DNA from: Promethearchaeota archaeon
GTDB lineage: Archaea; Asgardarchaeota; Lokiarchaeia; Sigyniarchaeales; SOKP01
Length of the DNA stretch: 32,000 bases
Reading direction: 5' to 3'
Assembly: GCA_030606485.1 (NCBI GenBank)
Contig: JAUWGH010000004.1
Coordinates: forward strand, 210,001-242,000
Part shown: piece after piece, positions 1,220 through 14,349 of the stretch
Numbering within the stretch: the first letter of the stretch is position 1
Layout: each line of letters opens with the position of its first letter
Notes under the pieces: generated by a model
What the model was told of the DNA's origin: nothing
The model's input: only the letters and a program-made list of their open reading frames with translations
Databases searched by the model: none
Translations under genes and position numbers: made by a program

Positions 1220-1225
1220 GGAGGT
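1220..1225 (+). promoter_or_regulatory. Shine-Dalgarno site
   Basis: GGAGGT 10 nt upstream of ATG 1236. Confidence 0.7.
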
Positions 1226-1235
1226 ATTTGTTAAA

Positions 1236-2522
1236 ATGAATGATCTTCGAAGTAAATTGAAAATTTCTGAAGAGGCATTAAAAGCCCTAAATGATTTTCT
1301 TCTGGATAAGGATAATCTTATTATTAACGACCTTTTTAAAATTATAGACAAGTATGGTGGGGTTGAAGAGATTAACAAAAAGGCGGAAGAGGCGGGAAAG
1401 TTGGACAATTTAATTCAACAGTTAGAAAAGAAAAATCCATCATATGTAAAAAATATCGATTGGTTAATTGAGCAACGTGATAAACAAGCTTTTATTAGTA
1501 TTCGCGAGTATCGACGGAAGATTCTTGGTGATAAAGCTGAAAAGATGGACTTTGACGATACTTTTGCGGTAACTTTAGAGTTATCTGCATGTCAGTATTT
1601 TCCATTTTTAGTTGATATTATAAAACGAGCTATTGAGCATAAATTATTAGTACCTGGTCGAATAATTCGCGTTAGAAAAATGAAAGAGCAGGAAGAAGAT
1701 GGGGATCTTTTGGCTATGGCTGCTGCTATGCAAATTATTGGTGCATCATATGTAGAGACACTTGATACTAAGGGTACAGCTCCAGGTCCTGATGGACTTC
1801 CTGTAAATGTTCATCTTGGTGGTCCTGAAACCATTACCGGTTATTTCGGAGGCGTTGGTCAACCAAATGACTTTGCCTTGAAATGGGTTGATGAGTATCT
1901 CTACTATTATACAAATTATGGTATTAAACAAGTTCTCAACGTAAATCCCGGCACAGTTCTTCTTGGTTATTTTCTTTACAAACTGGGAATTAATAATGAA
2001 TTCAAAATTTCAGTCTATATGGGGAACGACAACCCTTATGCTTGTCTTTGGACCTTGATGACAGCAAAGTTATTTGCTCGAGAAGATGGTACAAGTCCAC
2101 TGATCGGTTTCAATCTTGCAAACTCCGTTAATAATGAGACAATCGAACTGTCAGCATATATTAGGAAATCATTTGGTTTTGAAGATATTGTTCGTTTAGA
2201 ACATCATATAGTTGAGACATGGAAAAGCATTGTAAGGCAGCCATATGATCGTCGGGATGAATTAATTGAACTTGCTAAAAAAGTAAAGAATGTGAGTGCT
2301 AAACATGAGGGGGGTAATATCGAAGTTGAACAGAAACGAGAGCATCCTTCGGATATTCTTGAATATTTCATGAGCAAAGAGGAGATTATGGAAGCAAATT
2401 TGTGGGAATCTATGCGAATTAACCATCTTGACCGTAATGATGCAGTAAATGCAACTGCCAGAGCTCTCACTGAGAATGGACTTACATTTCTCGCTGCAAG
2501 GAATCTTCATCAACTTAAATAA
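1236..2522 (+). CDS. Protein of unknown function (428 aa), probable enzyme
   Basis: Long ORF with strong RBS and typical codon usage; enzyme-like motifs VETLDTKGT, HLGGPETITGYFGGVGQPN, RLEHHIVE, SAKHEGG; 18 nt upstream of the next gene. Confidence 0.85.
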   Translation: MNDLRSKLKISEEALKALNDFLLDKDNLIINDLFKIIDKYGGVEEINKKAEEAGKLDNLIQQLEKKNPSYVKNIDWLIEQRDKQAFISIREYRRKILGDKAEKMDFDDTFAVTLELSACQYFPFLVDIIKRAIEHKLLVPGRIIRVRKMKEQEEDGDLLAMAAAMQIIGASYVETLDTKGTAPGPDGLPVNVHLGGPETITGYFGGVGQPNDFALKWVDEYLYYYTNYGIKQVLNVNPGTVLLGYFLYKLGINNEFKISVYMGNDNPYACLWTLMTAKLFAREDGTSPLIGFNLANSVNNETIELSAYIRKSFGFEDIVRLEHHIVETWKSIVRQPYDRRDELIELAKKVKNVSAKHEGGNIEVEQKREHPSDILEYFMSKEEIMEANLWESMRINHLDRNDAVNATARALTENGLTFLAARNLHQLK

Positions 2523-2528
2523 AATTAA

Positions 2529-2534
2529 AGGTGA
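2529..2534 (+). promoter_or_regulatory. Shine-Dalgarno site
   Basis: AGGTGA 6 nt upstream of ATG 2541. Confidence 0.7.
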
Positions 2535-2540
2535 AAATAC

Positions 2541-4043
2541 ATGAGTAAAAATAAAGGAAAATTTGATTTCCGTCCTTCGGGGGTAATTCCTGCACTAGTT
2601 ACACCATTCAATAAGGAAGATGAATCTATTAATGAAGAGAATTTACGTAATCTAGTAAGTTTTCTAATTGAACAAGGAGTAACGGGTCTCGTTCCATGTG
2701 GTACAACTGGTGAATTTGTGAATATGACTTTTAAGGAGCGTCTGAAAGTAATCGAGATTGTAGTGGATGAGGCGAATGGGAGAGTCCCGGTAATTGCAGG
2801 AACTGGAGAATCGGGAACTAAACTCGTTATTGATGCTACTAGGGCTGCTACTGATATTGGTGCAGATGCAGCTATTATAGTAACACCTTATTATCTTAAA
2901 CCTAAAGCAAAAGGTTTATATGATCACTATTTTACGATAACTGAAAAGACAGATATACCTCTCGTTCTATATAATATTCCTCCTTGCACAGGGGTTAATT
3001 TGCCTTGGACTGTGGTAGAGGATCTTGTCGATATTGATAATATTGTAGCTATTAAGGATTCAAGTGGTGATTACAAATATTTTTCTGCATTATTGGAAAA
3101 AGTAAGTGATCGAATCTCAGTCCTTATTGGATGGGATGAAAATGTCTTGGCAGCGCTGGCTGGTGGAGCTGCAGGAATGATTCTTGCCTCAGCTAATGTG
3201 ATTCCAAAGATTTGGCTCGAACTATATAATCATGTGAAAAACAACCGTCTTGAGGAAGCTCAGGTTCTTCAGAAAAAGATTCAAAAATTTACTCGGATGA
3301 TGGTAAGTTCTGGTGCTTTAGGACCTAAAGAGTGTTTGAATATGATGAATATTCCTGTTGGTGTTACTCGACAGCCGATAATAATGGGTGATACACTTTC
3401 CTATGAGCTTTGGGATGAATTTAGAATTGAATTGGAGAAGTTAGGTTTGCTAAAAAAGAAGGAAATTAAATTTGAAGTTGCCGAGAAAGAACTTACGAGT
3501 CGTTTTTATTCTGTTGATATTACTCCTCAGAAAATTTCAGACTTTAGTTTAAGGGTTGGTGAATCACTCGTAGGAAATAGAGCCGAACTTGCTCATGTAG
3601 ACCTTCTTATTGGTGATAAGAAAGGTCCTGTTGGTGAAGCATATGCTCGTTCCCTAACACATCCTGCGAAAGGACGTGAAGGTCTTCAAGTAATTCTTGA
3701 ACCTAACATGCAAGTTAAACCGGCAACAGTAATGATTCCTACAGTTAAAGTCCATTCGCTACGTCAAGCAAGTCTCGTATATGGACCTGCACAAGCAGCA
3801 GTAGGGAAAGCGGTAATGAAATGTGTGGAAGATGGTATTCTTCCTAAAGATGCTTCAGAAGATTTAGTGATTATTGCAAATGTTTTTGTGCATCCCAGTG
3901 CAAGTAGTCGCAAACGAATTTTTATTAATAACTATAAAGCAACCCGGAATGCTATTCGAAAGGCGATGGAAGGATTACCAACAGCAGATGATGGCATAAA
4001 GAATAGTGAAAATGCTCGCCACCCATTTAGAAATGATCCTTAA
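2541..4043 (+). CDS. Fusion: DapA/NAL-family class I aldolase (N-term) + formaldehyde-activating enzyme Fae (C-term)
   Basis: Aldolase motifs PALVTPF, CGTTGE, VTPYY, LYNIP and Schiff-base IKDSSG. Fae motifs [49 protein letters not shown]. Single continuous frame. Confidence 0.9.
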
Positions 4044-8992: not shown

Positions 8993-10114
8993 TTACCATA
9001 ATAAGATTCTATTGCAGATCTTACATATACCTTCGTTAATTTGGATATTTAAACATTGTTCGTGATATGGTACGCCGCACTCTTTGCAAATATAAATCTT
9101 TCCCGTATAATTCTCAAAGTTCGAATCACATAAAGCACAATTTTGACTTGGGGGAAAATTATTTGGGACTTCTACAATTTTTGAGGTTCCCGTTAAATCC
9201 AATCCAGTCGTAGTAGTTGTTGTTGCAGAGGTTGGCATTGAGGTTGTAGGAATATTTGTATAAATAGTTCCACTTTGCATTTGAGAGGGTGTTTGATTTG
9301 TTTGAGCAAAGTCTTGATAATGAGCCCCAGCAGGAGTGCTTTTTTTTAATCCAACTTTGTAGGATACTTTTTCATCAAGGATATTAGTTAAAATCATTGC
9401 AGAAGCGAATTTTCCTTTTGCCTTACCTTTTTGTAAATGAGTATGGGAGATCAAATGAATTACCCGCCCGCCTGATTTACCATAATCAAAATAGACTAAA
9501 ACGGGCGCTTCACCCCATTTCTTTTGTAATACTAAAGAAGAAATCAATATTTTAACTGCAGTATAATTCAAAATGGTTATTGGGAAACTTTTAGCTTCTA
9601 ACCACCAACGGAAAGATTCCTCAGTTTTTTTTTTACCCCCCCACTTTGCTGTCTGGAGTTCAATTTCCAGACCCTCTAAAAATGGATGGTTTGGTTCTAG
9701 AATTTGACAAGGTACAACTGTATCGCCAGTTCTTGCGCCATTCCATTTTATAAATCCAGGAAATATAATTTCTACGATACTTCGAATTGCCCAATCTGTT
9801 GTTATTAACCAACCACCATTTTCAGCGACATATTTATAAATTCTTGTATGAGCAGCATTAGGGATCTCGTTGCCCGGACAACCTATCAAAACTACGTCAT
9901 AATGATTCAGGTCAATTTTCATCACATCTTTTGGTTTAATAACTTTCTTTTCTGATGCATACATATGTGGAATTATTTTTTCAGGTTTTTCATATCTACC
10001 GCTAACAGCAAGAATTTTTCCATGTTTTTCGACAGCTTCTACTACACCTTTCTTATTTAAAGCTTCTATCTTCCTTTTTTTTACCTCAGAATAGAGATTT
10101 TTCCAGTTACTCAT
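8993..10114 (-). CDS. Hypothetical protein: class I GATase-like N-terminal domain, Thr/Pro-rich linker, C-terminal C4HC3 (RING/PHD-like) zinc finger
   Basis: DVVLIGCPG...GGWLITTDWA suggests a flavodoxin-like/GATase fold; linker PTTSMPTSATTTTTTG; C-terminal CALC-x13-CKEC-x4-HEQC-x9-CKIC. Confidence 0.75.
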   Translation of the reverse strand: MSNWKNLYSEVKKRKIEALNKKGVVEAVEKHGKILAVSGRYEKPEKIIPHMYASEKKVIKPKDVMKIDLNHYDVVLIGCPGNEIPNAAHTRIYKYVAENGGWLITTDWAIRSIVEIIFPGFIKWNGARTGDTVVPCQILEPNHPFLEGLEIELQTAKWGGKKKTEESFRWWLEAKSFPITILNYTAVKILISSLVLQKKWGEAPVLVYFDYGKSGGRVIHLISHTHLQKGKAKGKFASAMILTNILDEKVSYKVGLKKSTPAGAHYQDFAQTNQTPSQMQSGTIYTNIPTTSMPTSATTTTTTGLDLTGTSKIVEVPNNFPPSQNCALCDSNFENYTGKIYICKECGVPYHEQCLNIQINEGICKICNRILLW

Positions 10115-10257
10115 TCAACCACTTTAAAGTTTTAAAATAAGAGAATATTTTGAAATTGAATTTGATAATATTAATAAAGAAATAATTAAATTAAATAAAT
10201 TTATTGACAAGAAATGGTTTTTCTTCAAGTAAATAAAGAATTTACATTATAAGGATA

Positions 10258-11340
10258 TTAAAAACAGAATTTACCCTCATCCATAAATGTTATTTCTTCA
10301 ATTAGAATTGTGGGTTTATTTATAATGAAATCGAGATGAATATCGGACAGGATATTTCCTCCAAAAAATTTATTTGTTCCAATTGCAATATGGCAGGACC
10401 CTTTTATTTTTTCTCCTTCAAGTACTGACTCATAGTGTGTTGCTTTTGGGTTCATACCAATTCCTAATTCCGCAACATTTCTTCTTGTTTTAATCAAATT
10501 AGGATCTTTCTCTGATTTCTTTTTTGGATTTAAATCCACTAAATTTAATGTTTCATCATTAGCACTTGTTAAGGAGATTAATAAACCATCTTTAAATTCG
10601 AATATCATATCCTCTCCTTCTTTCGCTCTAACTGACCATCCTTTTTCAATCAACATGGTTCCATTTGTTGTTCCTTCCATAGGTGCCGTAAATATTTCTC
10701 CTGCGGGAAGGTTTCCAAATGACCCATGTTCAGTATAGAGTCCATTATCATCCTTTAACTCTCTTTCGCCCTCCATAATCGTGAAAGTTAAGTCCGTTCC
10801 TCGTTTGGAAGTGATGTGTACATTCTTACTTTTATTTGGATTTATTTCAGAGATAAAGGATATACCTTTTTTAATTTCTTTATCTATTTCATTATAATCT
10901 GCGGTCATCGAGCCATTTATATCAAACATAAAGGGCTCAAATTCCGGTAATGTTGCTCCACGTGCGCCAACATTTGTCGCTTGCACCCTTGTATTTGTAT
11001 GAGATAATGAATAACTTGTAGGTATTATAAAAATATCGCAAGTTTTCAACTCTTCAGTGACAAAATCTGGAGCGTCAAGTCCTGATTGTAAAACTGAGGG
11101 GAATTCACATAATTTTACAAATTTTTCACCATATAATTCTTTAGTAAGATTAAATAACTTTTTTGTATATTGATTTCTATCTTTTATTTGTTTAAATTTC
11201 GCTTGAGTAATGGTTTTAAGCATATATTCTTCGGTAAAATCTGATACAAAGAGTATAGATTCATCCAATTTTCGTTTAAAATTTATCTTAAACATTCGGT
11301 CTAAACTATTTTTCAGATGGGTTGAATTATTTGACGCCAT
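10258..11340 (-). CDS. M29 family (thermophilic metalloprotease/AmpS-like) aminopeptidase
   Basis: GNLPAGEIFTAP, NVAELGIGMNP, EKIKGSCHIAIG, HLDFII; ATG 11340 preferred over TTG 11352. Confidence 0.85.
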   Translation of the reverse strand: MASNNSTHLKNSLDRMFKINFKRKLDESILFVSDFTEEYMLKTITQAKFKQIKDRNQYTKKLFNLTKELYGEKFVKLCEFPSVLQSGLDAPDFVTEELKTCDIFIIPTSYSLSHTNTRVQATNVGARGATLPEFEPFMFDINGSMTADYNEIDKEIKKGISFISEINPNKSKNVHITSKRGTDLTFTIMEGERELKDDNGLYTEHGSFGNLPAGEIFTAPMEGTTNGTMLIEKGWSVRAKEGEDMIFEFKDGLLISLTSANDETLNLVDLNPKKKSEKDPNLIKTRRNVAELGIGMNPKATHYESVLEGEKIKGSCHIAIGTNKFFGGNILSDIHLDFIINKPTILIEEITFMDEGKFCF

Positions 11341-11433
11341 TTTTTTCCACAAATAAGAATATTTTTTAAATTGGAAATATATTTATTTTTAGGATTTCTT
11401 ATTTATAAATCTATTAAGTTTGTTAAAATCAAT

Positions 11434-11949
11434 ATGTCAAAATCAATTCAATCGTCTGGCTCTGAGACAATTAAGGAAAAAATTGTTAAGAAAATTCCAT
11501 GGATATTTGGGAACAAACTGCGCAAACCTAGAATCCATTTTCCTAAAATACAAATATCCAAAAGATTTTCCCTTCCAACACCTTCAAGAAACTTAGGTCT
11601 ATTAACCATTTACATATTTCTTTTTGTTTTACAGATTGGAGTTATTTATATCATTTACAGAGAGCCTATAGCGTTGGGAGCTAACCCAAGTACTGGAGAA
11701 GCTATGTTTATTTATCCCGATATGCACGATGCTTTTATTATAGAATCGATTGTGGCTTCTATTTTAATATTCATAAGTTCCTCAGGATTTATAATAATAT
11801 ATCAAGCAACTAAGTATACTTATGATAGATCTTTTGCGTGGAGGTTGCTTTTAATTGGAGTAGTTTTAACATTGATAGGGTTTATAAGTTTGCAATATAT
11901 TATTGCTGTTAAGGAAGGAGTAATACTGCAAGGAACTAGAACTAATTAA
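11434..11949 (+). CDS. OSTC/DC2-like (OST3/OST6 C-terminal family) oligosaccharyltransferase accessory subunit
   Basis: Three TM segments; GVIYIIYREPIALG and FIIESIVASILIFISSSGFIII parallel eukaryotic OSTC GIIYDVIVEPPSVG and [22 protein letters not shown] (reference recalled from memory); ATG 11434 preferred over the TTG-extended ORF. Confidence 0.75.
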   Translation: MSKSIQSSGSETIKEKIVKKIPWIFGNKLRKPRIHFPKIQISKRFSLPTPSRNLGLLTIYIFLFVLQIGVIYIIYREPIALGANPSTGEAMFIYPDMHDAFIIESIVASILIFISSSGFIIIYQATKYTYDRSFAWRLLLIGVVLTLIGFISLQYIIAVKEGVILQGTRTN

Positions 11950-11972
11950 AGAAAGTGTGAAAATTTAATTAC

Positions 11973-11998
11973 TAGATTAAAACTCACATCTTAATCTA
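11973..11998. terminator. Inverted repeat between convergent genes
   Basis: TAGATTAA-10nt-TTAATCTA perfect 8-bp inverted repeat; AT-rich, so it may be chance. Confidence 0.25.
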
Positions 11999-12062
11999 AT
12001 TATATTAAATGAAAATAAAAAGTAAAAAAAATATAATTTTTCGAGTTTATTAATTTGATTTA

Positions 12063-12491
12063 TTATTGAATAGATGCAACATAATCTGCGGTTGATATCA
12101 AGTTTCCTTTCTCTGCATCAAGATTTGAAGCTTCAACCTTAAATAACCAAGCTGCATAAGGATCTTCATTTACCTTTTCAGGTTCATCCATTAAGTCAGG
12201 ATTTACTTCAACTACCTTACCTGATATTGGACTAAATATATCTCCAACACCTTTCTGGCTTTCGACTGTACAATCTACAGGATCGCCTGATCCATCAACA
12301 TCTTGAGAAACCTCTGCTCCTTCAACACCTTCTACATCAACGAAAGTAATTTCTCCCAATTGGTCAGCAGCATAAGAAGTAATACCGACAGTTACAATAT
12401 TTCCGTCAATTTTTGCCCATTGGTGTGCTTTAGAGTACAATAAATCATCTGGAAAGTCTAGTTCTTTATCATTAATTGTGGCTTTTACCAT
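12063..12491 (-). CDS. gcvH: Second glycine cleavage H-like lipoyl carrier protein
   Basis: HQWAK, GITSYAADQLGEITFV, lipoyl-Lys motif ESQKGVGDIFSPISG, NEDPYAAWLF. Confidence 0.88.
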   Translation of the reverse strand: MVKATINDKELDFPDDLLYSKAHQWAKIDGNIVTVGITSYAADQLGEITFVDVEGVEGAEVSQDVDGSGDPVDCTVESQKGVGDIFSPISGKVVEVNPDLMDEPEKVNEDPYAAWLFKVEASNLDAEKGNLISTADYVASIQ

Positions 12492-12580
12492 TTTCTTTCA
12501 TCTCATTTTGCATTTTTTTTTTATTTTATTTTATTAGGATGTTTTAAAATAATTTGAGTATTAATTTATAATTTTTTTTT

Positions 12581-13387
12581 TTATATGAAGATTTCATCTA
12601 AGTTAATTTTTTCTAATCTTATTATTCTTAGAGTTAAATTTTTTATTTTATTAAAAAGTAATTCATATATGATTGTTAGTGGCATAAAATAACCGATTAA
12701 GGCGATTGGAAAGAAAAAGATTACTATTTGTAAGAGAGGATCTGCTTCGGTAAATATTTTCGCGAAAGTAAGGTAATAAAAAATTGGAGTTGTTATTCCA
12801 GCGTATCCTCTTAAGATATATTTATAAAATTGACCAACTGAATTTACTTCGGGAGAGAGTCTAAATTCTTTCCTTAACCTTTTTATTTCAATGATTCCAC
12901 AATCGTGAAAAAGCCAAATTGGGATAACTAGGATTGAGCAAAATGGTGCAGTCAATAATGCAGCAAACAGAATGGTTGTGGAATGATCAAATCCGATAAT
13001 TCTTACATTAAATATCCAATAATAATTCATTATGACTAAACCAATAGAGAGGGATAAAAAACTAGGTAATAATGTTCGAGTAAAAGTTGGGAAGCCTTTA
13101 ATTTTTTCACCTTTAAGTGTGATTATTTTAAAATCGTAGTTTCTTTTTATAATTTTAGAGATTAACAAATATACTCCAATAAATAAGATTCCAAAAGGAA
13201 TAGCGATTAAATTGAAAACAAATGGCATAAAGTTAAGAAGTATAGCATCGGATAACCCTAACCCAGGATAGATCTTAGTAAGATCTAAAGTCGGTGGGAT
13301 ATTTCGTGTAATATAGATAGCAAAAATTATAGTTACTAGCGTAAAAAATATGGGTAATATTAATTGTTTTTTTTCCATTATTCTCAA
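12581..13387 (-). CDS. Hypothetical multi-pass membrane protein
   Basis: 268-aa ORF with about 6 hydrophobic segments; no family recognised. Confidence 0.75.
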   Translation of the reverse strand: MRIMEKKQLILPIFFTLVTIIFAIYITRNIPPTLDLTKIYPGLGLSDAILLNFMPFVFNLIAIPFGILFIGVYLLISKIIKRNYDFKIITLKGEKIKGFPTFTRTLLPSFLSLSIGLVIMNYYWIFNVRIIGFDHSTTILFAALLTAPFCSILVIPIWLFHDCGIIEIKRLRKEFRLSPEVNSVGQFYKYILRGYAGITTPIFYYLTFAKIFTEADPLLQIVIFFFPIALIGYFMPLTIIYELLFNKIKNLTLRIIRLEKINLDEIFI

Positions 13388-13485
13388 CTCAAAATTAAAA
13401 TATTATTTCTGAATAATTGCAAGATAGCTTTATTATTTTTTCGAATTAAATAAATTTTTATAGTTCTTATTATGGAAATATATTT

Positions 13486-14349
13486 ATGAGAGTGAGTTTT
13501 AAGCCAGATATTATTAAATCTATCAATTTTTTTTCTGAATTTAAAGAGTGGTATTATAAAATAATCAAAGATTTTAATTTTGATCAAGAGCAAGATAGGT
13601 TTGCTAGAGATTTATTTTTAGATATTTTAATTGATAGTAAAAATTATGAAAATTTTTATCAAAACTTGGAGAATTTAAAAGTTATAATCCAAAAAAATAA
13701 ATTTATAACCATATTTGGTTGCGGTCCTTCTTTAGAAAAAACTTTTAACAAAATTTCTCAAAATAATAAGAGTAAGTTTCCAATAAACCAATTGATTATT
13801 GCTATAGATGGAGCTGTCGTATTTCTTGATGAAAAAGGAATAAAATCAAACCTTATTTTTACTGATCTTGATGGATTTTTACCAGAAAAATTTTCTTATT
13901 TTAGAAAACTTTCAAATTATATAGTTTTACATGCACATGGAGATAATATAGATATTTTAAAAAAAATATCAAATGAGGTAAAAATTGCGAATAATATTAT
14001 TGGAACAACGCAAGTTGAGCCAAAATCTATTATTTTAAATCCAGGTGGTTTTACGGACGGAGATAGAGTTCTCTATTTTCTTAAAAATTTCATTCGGCCT
14101 AATCAAAAAATTTTTTTTATTGGTATGGATTTTGGAGAAGTTGTAGGTCGTTATTCTAAACCAGAGTACTCAGAAAATCAAAAAGCAAAACCAAATAAAT
14201 TAAAAAAACTTCAGTATGCTGAAAAATTATTAGAGTGGATCATTAAAAAATTAAAAAATGAGATTTATTTCATTAATTCAAAAATTTCTTCAAATTATGT
14301 TCAGATTATTTCAATTAAGCAATATTCAAACTTCTTAAATATTTTATAA
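13486..14349 (+). CDS. mptE: 6-hydroxymethyl-7,8-dihydropterin pyrophosphokinase MptE (DUF115)
   Basis: FGCGPSL, IAIDGA, TDLDG, HAHGDN, GTTQVEP, GGFTDGDR, GMDFG...GRYSKP...KLKKL. Confidence 0.88.
   Translation: MRVSFKPDIIKSINFFSEFKEWYYKIIKDFNFDQEQDRFARDLFLDILIDSKNYENFYQNLENLKVIIQKNKFITIFGCGPSLEKTFNKISQNNKSKFPINQLIIAIDGAVVFLDEKGIKSNLIFTDLDGFLPEKFSYFRKLSNYIVLHAHGDNIDILKKISNEVKIANNIIGTTQVEPKSIILNPGGFTDGDRVLYFLKNFIRPNQKIFFIGMDFGEVVGRYSKPEYSENQKAKPNKLKKLQYAEKLLEWIIKKLKNEIYFINSKISSNYVQIISIKQYSNFLNIL

What the first reader, a model, noticed from the sequence alone, without database searches (positions are those of the whole stretch)
1236..2522. Unknown 428-aa protein tightly co-transcribed with the aldolase-Fae fusion
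Seen: strong RBS, same strand, 18-nt gap to the fusion gene, and the pair ends at the convergent gcvPB. Gly/His/Asp/Glu-rich motifs (ETLDTKGT, NVHLGG, GYFGGVGQPN, EHH, KHEGG) look like a metal-binding active site. Inference: it makes the aldolase substrate or consumes its product, and may be a metal-dependent barrel enzyme with an unassigned reaction.
Basis: inference. Interest (0 to 1): 0.62.

Follow-up and report, generated by a model that had tools for sequence, protein, structure and literature searches.

The report
Orphan barrel enzyme at homoserine node
This gene encodes a real, very strongly conserved enzyme of an unnamed family. It always travels with enzymes that make or break the four-carbon acids homoserine and 4-hydroxy-2-oxobutanoate, so it marks an undescribed pathway common in sediment archaea and some bacteria, but its own reaction is still unknown.

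Summary
Bases 1236-2522 (+) encode a 428-aa protein behind a GGAGGT site, 18 nt upstream of a DHDPS-like aldolase fused to Fae.

What the protein is:
- It matches no Pfam, NCBIfam or PDB sequence.
- It has more than 8000 relatives at 41-98% identity in Asgard archaea, Bathyarchaeia, Thermoplasmata, Chloroflexota and cyanobacteria.
- AlphaFold gives a confident N-terminal helical domain plus a TIM barrel. 54 of the 58 invariant columns lie in the barrel.
- No known superfamily stands out by fold.

How it is linked to other genes:
- In the window's own Loki-type family it is inherited strictly with the fusion (14/14 genomes against 0/8).
- In Chloroflexota it follows a second-copy PanB in 21 of 27 loci.
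- In Heimdall/Hod archaea and Thermoplasmata it sits in aminotransferase-homoserine dehydrogenase-AOR operons.
- In one bacterial contig (seen in two samples) it heads an aspartate kinase-ASD-homoserine dehydrogenase operon.

The shared element is homoserine / 4-hydroxy-2-oxobutanoate (HOB). My best reading is an enolising hydro-lyase-type enzyme that makes or consumes HOB. The exact reaction is inferred only.

Tests did not support a role as a ThrB, PanB or HcyBio substitute. This scan found the same family before on other DNA (e1-5565262 and others), and my results agree and extend them.

The parts
1220..1225 (+). Shine-Dalgarno-like GGAGGT, 10 nt upstream of the start codon
   Evidence: Read directly from the sequence.
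1236..2522 (+). Gene for the 428-aa orphan enzyme (P0001, here called X428)
   Evidence: ORF. More than 8000 homologues. No family match.
1236..1550 (+). N-terminal all-helical domain (residues 1-105), less conserved
   Evidence: AlphaFold model: helices H2-103, pLDDT 88-98. Only 4 of the 58 invariant columns lie here.
1551..2519 (+). TIM-barrel catalytic domain (residues 106-428). The invariant polar residues E115 S117 R142 R147 T178 N191 H193 N211 E220 Y224 N235 T240 K257 S259 D265 N266 R282 D284 N293 R310 R320 E322 H324 Q335 K356 H357 E358 include at least one at or just after the C-terminal end of each of the eight strands.
   Evidence: Models, invariant columns, mapping to strands, fold searches.
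2530..2534 (+). GGTGA ribosome-binding site of the downstream gene, inside the 18-nt spacer
   Evidence: Read directly from the sequence.
2541..4043 (+). Partner gene: a DHDPS-family class I aldolase paralogue fused to Fae. It is not the housekeeping DapA.
   Evidence: Pfam and NCBIfam. Every genome of the family also has a separate canonical DapA. The Arg of the YNVPGRT motif in the canonical DapA is replaced by Cys or Leu in the fusions, while the Schiff-base Lys is kept.

Best explanation
X428 is the catalytic, invariant core of a variable metabolic module centred on 4-hydroxy-2-oxobutanoate (HOB) and its amino form, homoserine. It is a cytosolic enzyme of a previously unnamed family. It has an N-terminal helical domain plus a TIM barrel, and the barrel mouth is lined by invariant Glu, His, Lys, Arg, Asn and Asp residues.

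The partner enzymes change with lineage but always connect the same C4 skeleton to central metabolism:
- to pyruvate plus a pterin-bound C1 unit, through aldolase-Fae in Loki-type Asgard archaea and Bathyarchaeia, a second-copy PanB in Chloroflexota, or a DHDPS-like aldolase in cyanobacteria;
- to aspartate, through aminotransferase or amino-acid dehydrogenase, homoserine dehydrogenase, and AOR or ASD plus aspartate kinase.

So X428 either makes HOB from, or converts HOB into, a compound not yet identified. I put this node-level claim at about 0.65.

The chemistry I commit to, at about 0.2 (inferred only), is base- or metal-assisted enolisation at C3 of a 4-substituted 2-oxobutanoate, followed by elimination or addition at C4. 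That is HOB <-> 2-oxobut-3-enoate + H2O, possibly with other leaving groups or nucleophiles such as thiols. In other words it would be a hydro-lyase step next to the aldolase, like the hydratase-aldolase and dehydratase-aldolase pairs of known catabolic routes.

Shown: the gene, its conservation, the fold class and the linkage patterns. Inferred: the substrate, the direction, any metal use and the reaction.
For: Enzyme-like family:
- No known family matches, yet more than 8000 relatives exist. Full-length members are never below 41% identical.
- At least 581 matching stretches were found in the one-genome-per-species collection.
- 58 columns are invariant in 54 diverse members, 54 of them in the barrel, with at least one invariant polar residue at or just after each strand end.
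- The models are confident (pLDDT 91.4, pTM 0.90).

Linkage to C1/2-oxoacid enzymes:
- The fusion is adjacent in 48 of 80 archaeal loci: tandem in Loki-type, divergent in Bathyarchaeia.
- Co-inheritance is strict in family f1: 14/14 against 0/8, p=3e-6 uncorrected.
- PanB (PF02548, 1.2e-100) lies directly upstream in 21 of 27 Chloroflexota loci, and it is a second, lower-scoring copy.
- A DHDPS-like gene sits next to X428 in Calothrix and Prochloraceae.

Linkage to the homoserine node:
- X428, aminotransferase, HSD and AOR form tight operons with varying gene order in Heimdall/Hod archaea and Thermoplasmata. Bathyarchaeial loci mix HSD, AOR, the fusion and X428.
- X428-AK-ASD-HSD forms an operon in L159/L160.
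- An ELFV amino-acid dehydrogenase lies 8 nt downstream in a Chloroflexia locus and nearby in Calothrix.
- Threonine-synthase-like genes are neighbours in Thor- and Bathyarchaeial loci and in G508.

Complementary distribution:
- Of five genomes examined, the two with an X428-linked HSD lack the fusion, and the three with the fusion lack HSD; X428 is in all five.
- In f1, 21 of 22 genomes have HSD or the module (p=0.024 uncorrected).

The fusion's aldolase has lost the Arg that sits in the YNVPGRT motif of the canonical DapA. This fits a small acceptor such as formaldehyde (the role of that Arg is from memory of E. coli DapA).

Catabolic use of HSD plus an aldehyde-oxidising enzyme on homoserine is documented (PMC9533460).

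Every other one-step neighbour of HOB already has a candidate enzyme in one context or another: aldolase or PanB, aminotransferase or amino-acid dehydrogenase, PanE-like reductase, IlvD/Edd dehydratase, TPP decarboxylase. That leaves an elimination/hydration-type step unassigned.
Against: - No assay, no ligand and no coordinates were available to me, so the active-site geometry and a metal site could not be checked.
- The direction is open. AOR and the bacterial transporter and regulator contexts suggest catabolism (X428 makes HOB). The weak complementarity with hom-thrC in f1 suggests supply of homoserine.
- The L159 operon has no linked aminotransferase, which would fit homoserine rather than HOB as the substrate.
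- Sugar kinases (FGGY, PfkB, Dak) near X428 in bacteria hint at a phosphorylated substrate that my proposal does not use.
- 2-Oxobut-3-enoate is not an established natural intermediate in the papers I could search.
- The family is absent from about half of the Asgard genomes sampled, including complete close relatives, so it is accessory.
Confidence: 0.45

Rival explanations
1. X428 is an acid-sugar dehydratase that converts a C4 aldonic acid (D-erythronate or L-threonate) into HOB (2-keto-3-deoxy-tetronate). HOB is then cleaved by the DHDPS-family aldolase. This would be a four-carbon version of the non-phosphorylative Entner-Doudoroff scheme (dehydratase, KDG-type aldolase, aldehyde oxidation by AOR), with Fae taking the formaldehyde.
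For: - The gene architecture X428 + DHDPS-family aldolase (+AOR in Bathyarchaeia) mirrors dehydratase-aldolase-AOR sets.
- The bacterial contexts look like sugar-acid catabolism: IclR or GntR regulators, ABC or MFS transporters, an MBL-fold candidate lactonase, Dak/PfkB/FGGY kinases, and a nearby DHDPS-AOR-GD_AH set.
Against: - In the P0130 clade X428 sits next to an IlvD/Edd dehydratase that could do this step itself.
- The archaeal operons have no transporter.
- 65-80% identity across phyla is unusual for a peripheral sugar-acid dehydratase.
- The AK-ASD-HSD operon is hard to fit.
- No specific fold match to known dehydratase families was found.
Confidence: 0.15
2. X428 is itself a metal-dependent (class II-like) aldolase. 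It joins or splits pyruvate and formaldehyde (HOB aldolase), or cleaves larger 2-keto-3-deoxy acids.
For: - Foldseek ranks class II aldolases first: YdjI at E 1.2e-6 and FBP aldolases, for both models.
- In the Heimdall and Thermoplasmata genomes checked the fusion is absent, so the X428-AT-HSD-AOR operon has no other C-C enzyme.
- The P0130-clade operon (IlvD/Edd, MBL, Dak) lacks any other aldolase.
- Invariant His193, His324 and His357 could form a three-His metal site.
Against: - X428 is strictly co-inherited and co-transcribed with another aldol-type enzyme (fusion, PanB paralogue or DHDPS-like). That would be redundant.
- No member matches PF01116.
Confidence: 0.12
3. X428 works at the amino-acid level on homoserine or a derivative. 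Examples are a non-ThrB phosphotransferase making O-phosphohomoserine, a phosphatase or esterase, or a homoserine-lactone hydrolase.
For: - The X428-AK-ASD-HSD operon has homoserine as its end product and no linked aminotransferase.
- ThrB is absent over the cut-off in all 26 archaeal genomes checked, while ThrC-like genes are present in most.
- ThrC-like genes are neighbours.
- A Gly-rich loop and five invariant Arg suggest an anionic, perhaps phosphorylated, ligand.
Against: - ThrB is equally common in Chloroflexota with X428 (21/30) and without it (15/20).
- Loki genomes with hom-thrC but without X428 also lack ThrB, so X428 is not the missing kinase.
- Most contexts (about 70 loci) supply HOB, not homoserine, and have no aminotransferase nearby.
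- No nucleotide-binding motif was found.
Confidence: 0.1
4. X428 belongs to pantoate/CoA synthesis, helping or following ketopantoate hydroxymethyl transfer. In this reading aldolase-Fae is the H4MPT-dependent PanB analogue.
For: - PanB is the commonest bacterial neighbour.
- The window's genome lacks PanB but has PPS and PanE.
- A PanE-like gene is in the Calothrix cluster.
Against: - The X428-linked PanB is a second copy alongside a canonical one.
- In family f1, PanB presence is unrelated to the module: 8/13 against 6/9 as scored (9/14 against 5/8 once G505 is counted as a carrier).
- Three f1 genomes lack both.
- The HSD, AK, ASD, AOR and aminotransferase contexts have nothing to do with pantoate.
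Confidence: 0.05
5. X428 is a non-catalytic accessory or chaperone subunit of the aldolase, as GatZ/KbaZ is for tagatose-bisphosphate aldolase.
For: - Its length is close to that of GatZ-like proteins, and 3txv appears among the Foldseek matches.
- It is strictly co-inherited with the fusion.
Against: - The polar residues at the barrel mouth are invariant across lineages that have different partners or no aldolase partner at all.
- A virus-like contig carries the gene alone.
Confidence: 0.03

Closest known systems
Class II (metal-dependent) aldolases of the FBP / tagatose-bisphosphate / YdjI family (PF01116)
   Same: Both are TIM barrels. These are the top Foldseek matches for the whole model and for the barrel alone (E 2e-4 and 1.2e-6). 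Both have invariant His, Glu, Asn and Lys at the barrel mouth, suited to enolate chemistry on a keto substrate, and both sit in aldol-type gene contexts.
Peptidase U32-like barrels (PF01136; RlhA/TrhP/UbiU-UbiV type)
   Different: hhalign probability is 0.2% against the genome's own U32 family. No PF01136 hit. No conserved cysteine, so no Fe-S cluster of the UbiU/UbiV kind (the cluster requirement is from established knowledge of those enzymes).
Hydratase-aldolase and dehydratase-aldolase pairs of catabolic pathways (MhpD/MhpE or HpaH/HpaI; gluconate dehydratase + KD(P)G aldolase + AOR of the non-phosphorylative ED pathway). Recalled from established biochemistry.
   Same: The operon logic is the same: a hydro-lyase next to a pyruvate aldolase (here of the DHDPS/KDG-aldolase family), sometimes with an aldehyde:ferredoxin oxidoreductase.
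   Different: X428 is unrelated in sequence to those hydratases and dehydratases. The aldehyde here is probably formaldehyde, captured by Fae or a PanB-type enzyme. The link to homoserine dehydrogenase is new.
Engineered HOB / homoserine-cycle routes and the canavanine-to-homoserine-to-aspartate pathway (PMC8879981 and PMC7918591 found by term search only; PMC9533460 read in part)
   Same: The same intermediates: pyruvate + formaldehyde <-> HOB <-> homoserine. Homoserine -> aspartate semialdehyde -> aspartate by HSD plus an aldehyde-oxidising enzyme was shown in vitro, in loci that also hold a class I/II aminotransferase-like gene, threonine synthase and dapA.
   Different: None of those routes contains a protein like X428. 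The natural archaeal module uses Fae/H4MPT and tungsten-type AOR.

Membership tests
TIM-barrel (beta/alpha)8 fold | Eight alternating strand-helix units closing a barrel | tested here: met
Class II aldolase PF01116 | Sequence or profile match to the family | tested here: not met
   No PF01116 hit for P0001 or any of 54 members, even at E up to 5.
Class II aldolase PF01116 | Specific structural similarity above other barrels | tested here: inconclusive
Class II aldolase PF01116 | Three-His divalent metal site plus catalytic Asp/Glu at the barrel mouth | not testable with these tools
Peptidase U32 (PF01136) | Profile match to the family | tested here: not met
   hhalign probability 0.2% against an alignment of the genome's own U32 homologues. 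No Pfam hit.
Peptidase U32 (PF01136) | Conserved cysteines for a 4Fe-4S cluster (UbiU/UbiV/TrhP/RlhA type) | tested here: not met
   No cysteine column is conserved; the best is C119, in 23 of 54 members.
Peptidase U32 (PF01136) | Barrel shape | tested here: inconclusive
PanB / ketopantoate hydroxymethyltransferase (PF02548) | Homology to PanB | tested here: not met
   hhalign probability 0.1% against 14 neighbouring PanB sequences.
DHDPS/NAL class I aldolases (PF00701) | Homology to the family | tested here: not met
   hhalign probability 0.35% against 40 fusion proteins. No Pfam hit.
Functional analogue of homoserine kinase ThrB | Presence where ThrB is missing and absence where ThrB is present | tested here: not met
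   ThrB is over the cut-off in 21/30 X428-positive and 15/20 X428-negative Chloroflexota. ThrB is absent from all 22 f1 genomes whether or not they carry X428.
Functional replacement of PanB | Anticorrelation of the module with PanB | tested here: not met
   PanB in 8/13 X428-positive and 6/9 X428-negative f1 genomes as scored (9/14 against 5/8 with G505 counted as a carrier). The X428-linked PanB in Chloroflexota is a second copy.

The most novel reading that the evidence does not exclude
X428 catalyses a reaction type not yet in enzyme catalogues: cofactor-independent gamma-elimination or gamma-replacement on a 2-oxo acid. Examples are HOB or 4-methylthio-2-oxobutanoate <-> 2-oxobut-3-enoate, allowing thiol or water exchange without PLP. 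Together with aldolase-Fae or a PanB paralogue it would form a natural pathway linking pterin-bound C1 units plus pyruvate to the homoserine, methionine and aspartate family in Asgard archaea, Bathyarchaeia and Chloroflexota. That would be a natural counterpart of the engineered homoserine cycle.
Probability: 0.18. Interest if true: 0.85.

Novelty: new variant of a known kind. Interest (0 to 1): 0.68.

Why it matters
This is one of the most conserved proteins of unknown function in Asgard archaea: 65-80% identity across phyla, more than 8000 database relatives, all labelled hypothetical. It sits where one-carbon metabolism (H4MPT or folate) meets the aspartate/homoserine family of amino acids.

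Assigning its reaction would do three things:
- complete a pathway that today exists only as an engineered design (pyruvate + formaldehyde -> HOB -> homoserine);
- change metabolic reconstructions of the closest archaeal relatives of eukaryotes and of abundant sediment heterotrophs;
- possibly add a new barrel chemistry useful for C1 bioconversion.

It also corrects the routine 'DapA' annotation of its partner gene.

Tried and rejected
- Sequence family searches (Pfam and NCBIfam on P0001; Pfam on all 54 members; PDB sequences) found nothing.
- The ESM-Atlas feature search gave no usable hit.
- Profile-profile comparison with PanB, with the aldolase-Fae fusion and with U32 gave probability below 1% in each case.
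- Four PDB fold searches on two models gave only generic barrels. Folding the barrel alone did not sharpen the result.
- Complex prediction of X428 with the fusion returned 'no answer' (ipSAE 0.00, controls not run). This is no evidence either way.
- The homoserine-kinase-substitute idea was rejected on phyletic grounds.
- The PanB-replacement / pantoate idea was rejected.
- The idea of a substitute for the HcyBio (COG1900) homocysteine route is not supported. HcyBio is present in 21/22 f1 genomes regardless of X428, although it is absent from the four other archaeal genomes.
- The neighbours of the two tandem fusions in a complete Thorarchaeota genome were uninformative.
- Paper searches for the family, for a natural HOB pathway in archaea and for 2-oxobut-3-enoate enzymes found no description.
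- The anticorrelation with homoserine dehydrogenase in f1 (p=0.024) is not corrected for phylogeny. It partly follows genus boundaries, so I treat it as suggestive only.
Full report
OBSERVATION. The ORF at 1236-2522 (+) is real: 428 aa with an ATG start. GGAGGT lies 10 nt upstream. An 18-nt spacer holding GGTGA separates the ORF from the next gene. That gene (2541-4043) carries DHDPS (PF00701, 1.4e-74) and Fae (PF08714, 8.8e-57) domains.

WHAT KIND OF PROTEIN. P0001 matches no Pfam or NCBIfam model and no PDB sequence. The same holds for all 54 members of a diverse alignment. Yet the word-index search hit its ceiling of 8000 relatives. The best 120 are 76-98% identical, and every one that carries a name is called hypothetical; they come from Loki-, Hermod-, Hod- and Heimdall-type Asgard archaea.

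At 50% clustering the family collapses to a handful of full-length representatives, the most distant 41% identical. A second search from that distant member found Anaerolineae, cyanobacteria (Calothrix, Prochloraceae), a deltaproteobacterium and euryarchaea. The collection of one genome per species holds at least 581 matching stretches. The best 80 (65% identity or more) come from Asgard lineages, Bathyarchaeia, Thermoplasmata and one Chloroflexia genome.

AlphaFold gives a confident model (pLDDT 91.4, pTM 0.90). It has a helical N-domain (residues 1-105) and a TIM barrel (106-428) with one disordered loop at about 181-210. Fifty-eight columns are invariant and 54 of them lie in the barrel. 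Each of the eight strands carries at least one invariant polar residue at or just after its C-terminal end: E115/S117, R142/R147, T178, N235/T240, K257/S259/D265/N266, N293, R320/E322/H324, K356/H357/E358. That is the signature of a barrel active site. There is no conserved cysteine.

GENE LINKAGE IN ARCHAEA. In 48 of the 80 best loci the aldolase-Fae fusion is adjacent. It lies downstream on the same strand in Loki-type genomes (27 loci) and divergently upstream in Bathyarchaeia. X428 is better conserved between these groups (65-71%) than the fusion (about 55-62%).

In a sample of 121 Asgard genomes at least 85% complete, X428 is present in 64, with a patchy spread across families. Inside the window's own family all 22 genomes examined carry a roughly 430-aa Fae ORF. 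The second Fae, in a roughly 500-aa ORF, occurs in exactly the X428 carriers. One apparent exception has the fusion cut by a contig end. The count is therefore 14/14 against 0/8 (p=3e-6, uncorrected).

Every one of these genomes except G450 (no match at E<=1e-30) and G514 (only the fusion's own domain matched) also shows a separate canonical DapA that scores higher than the fusion's DapA domain. The fusions have lost the Arg of the YNVPGRT motif seen in the canonical protein, but keep the Schiff-base Lys. So the partner is an extra aldolase paralogue, not the lysine enzyme.

Where the fusion is not adjacent, in Heimdall/Hod archaea and Thermoplasmata, X428 sits in tight same-strand operons, in varying gene order, with three genes:
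- a class I/II aminotransferase;
- a bona fide homoserine dehydrogenase (NF004912, 425 bits against a cut-off of 373);
- an aldehyde:ferredoxin oxidoreductase.

Bathyarchaeial loci mix HSD, AOR, the fusion and X428. In some Thor- and Bathyarchaeial loci a threonine-synthase-like gene fused to PadR is a neighbour.

GENE LINKAGE IN BACTERIA. Thirty of 401 sampled Chloroflexota carry X428. In 21 of 27 assessable loci the gene directly upstream on the same strand is PanB (PF02548, 1.2e-100). In the four genomes checked this PanB is a second, lower-scoring copy beside a canonical one.

Other bacterial contexts:
- PanB-FGGY kinase-X428 beside a DHDPS-AOR-dehydratase set.
- PanB-X428-MFS with sugar kinases.
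- TPP decarboxylase, PanE-like reductase, amino-acid dehydrogenase, DHDPS-like aldolase and X428 in Calothrix; DHDPS-like aldolase plus X428 in Prochloraceae.
- An amino-acid dehydrogenase 8 nt downstream in a Chloroflexia genome.
- In the most divergent clade, an IclR-regulated operon: Liv-type ABC transporter, X428, IlvD/Edd dehydratase, MBL-fold hydrolase and Dak1-Dak2.
- Most tellingly, X428-aspartate kinase-ASD-homoserine dehydrogenase in one operon.

LOGIC. Two unrelated supply routes recur next to X428. One joins or splits pyruvate and a pterin-bound C1 unit (aldolase-Fae, PanB paralogue, DHDPS-like). The other runs between aspartate and homoserine (AK-ASD-HSD or AOR-HSD). What the two routes share is not their starting material. 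They share the C4 product: 4-hydroxy-2-oxobutanoate and homoserine, which an aminotransferase or amino-acid dehydrogenase interconverts, and such genes are also recurrent neighbours.

Five genomes illustrate the complementarity:
- Own genome: fusion present, HSD absent, ASD present.
- Heimdall genome: fusion absent, HSD next to X428, ASD absent.
- Thermoplasmata genome: the same as the Heimdall genome.
- Complete Thorarchaeota and Bathyarchaeia chromosomes: fusion present, HSD and ASD absent.
- X428 is present in all five.

In family f1, 21 of 22 genomes have HSD or the module. The association (p=0.024) partly follows genus boundaries, and I regard it as suggestive. Counting the contexts that would need an unlinked aminotransferase favours HOB over homoserine as the compound X428 touches.

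DIRECTION AND CHEMISTRY (INFERRED). AOR enzymes normally oxidise aldehydes. The bacterial clusters have transporters and IclR/GntR regulators. Homoserine -> aspartate semialdehyde -> aspartate by HSD plus an aldehyde-oxidising enzyme is a documented catabolic route, in loci that also hold an aminotransferase-like gene, threonine synthase and dapA (PMC9533460). All this favours X428 producing HOB, which is then either cleaved to pyruvate plus methylene-pterin or oxidised to aspartate.

The weak complementarity with hom-thrC favours the opposite, biosynthetic reading proposed by earlier notes of this scan. I cannot decide between them.

Every other one-step neighbour of HOB already has a candidate enzyme in some context: aldol cleavage, amination, 2-oxo reduction, decarboxylation, and formation from a 2,3-dihydroxy acid by IlvD/Edd. 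The step I think most likely for X428 is therefore an enolisation-driven elimination or addition at C4 of a 4-substituted 2-oxobutanoate. The rivals, in order, are a tetronate dehydratase, a class II-like HOB aldolase, and an enzyme acting on homoserine or a phosphorylated derivative.

TESTS THAT NARROWED THE FIELD.
- ThrB is equally frequent in Chloroflexota with and without X428 (21/30 against 15/20), and it is absent from all 22 f1 genomes. X428 is not the missing homoserine kinase.
- PanB is unrelated to the module (8/13 against 6/9). X428 is not a pantoate-pathway replacement.
- HcyBio is present in 21 of 22 f1 genomes regardless of X428.

COMPARISON WITH EARLIER NOTES OF THE SCAN. The same family was examined on other DNA. 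Note e1-5565262 described an orphan barrel beside aldolase-Fae, present in Asgard archaea, Chloroflexi and cyanobacteria, nearest to class II aldolases. My independent searches agree with it. They add:
- the strict co-inheritance in one family;
- the paralogue status of the linked PanB;
- the AK-ASD-HSD operon;
- the fusion-or-HSD pattern;
- the negative ThrB, PanB and HcyBio tests;
- the U32-like shape match without Fe-S cysteines.

A further operon reported there (e1-1359061: X-family gene, Fe-ADH, AOR, D-2-hydroxyacid dehydrogenase, LarA-like) fits the same C4 hydroxy/oxo-acid theme, but I did not verify it.

VERDICT. This is a widespread, unnamed enzyme family marking an undescribed pathway at the C1/homoserine junction.

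Noticed in passing
L004:8001-9158 (virus-like contig, 41 kb, VirSorter category 3): A 385-aa member of the family (P0126, 46-48% identical, invariant residues kept) sits alone among small phage-like ORFs, with a clamp-loader-like AAA protein, ERCC4, Vsr, ThiF and a radical-SAM gene. It is a possible auxiliary metabolic gene of an archaeal virus.
   Followed up: partly
G000 (own genome): C6:68018-70240, and the whole genome for PanB: The 100%-complete genome has phosphopantothenate synthetase and a PanE-type reductase side by side, but no PanB. Three related genomes lack both PanB and the X428 module. The source of ketopantoate is unclear.
   Followed up: partly
22 genomes of the window's family; own genome C10:639024-639989: No genome has a ThrB over the cut-off, although most have threonine-synthase-like genes of two or three types. 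The canonical hom-thrC pair occurs only in the HSD-positive genomes. A homoserine kinase appears to be missing from the lineage.
   Followed up: partly
L155:7706-10587 (complete Thorarchaeota chromosome): Two overlapping tandem aldolase-Fae genes, 43% identical to the window's fusion, lie far from X428. The first has a shortened Fae domain (profile positions 13-135 of 159).
   Followed up: partly
L133, L134, L135, L142, L143 (Chloroflexota): A 23S rRNA intervening-sequence protein gene (PF05635) is inserted between the PanB paralogue and X428 in five loci.
   Followed up: no
L067:5666-7150 and similar Thor- and Bathyarchaeial loci: A threonine-synthase-like protein (TIGR00260, 207 bits) is fused to a C-terminal PadR-type winged helix. 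It lies one or two genes from X428.
   Followed up: no
L159:7060-11593: The X428-AK-ASD-HSD operon could run backwards as an ATP-yielding oxidation of homoserine to aspartate, with ASD and aspartate kinase in reverse, by analogy with GAPDH/PGK. This is purely a thought; nothing was tested.
   Followed up: no
window 8993-14349: Other features near the finding: a protein with a C-terminal PHD/RING-type finger (8993-10114), an OST3/OST6-like membrane protein (11371-11949), a second glycine-cleavage H protein (12063-12491) and an MptE-like pterin diphosphokinase (13486-14349).
   Followed up: no
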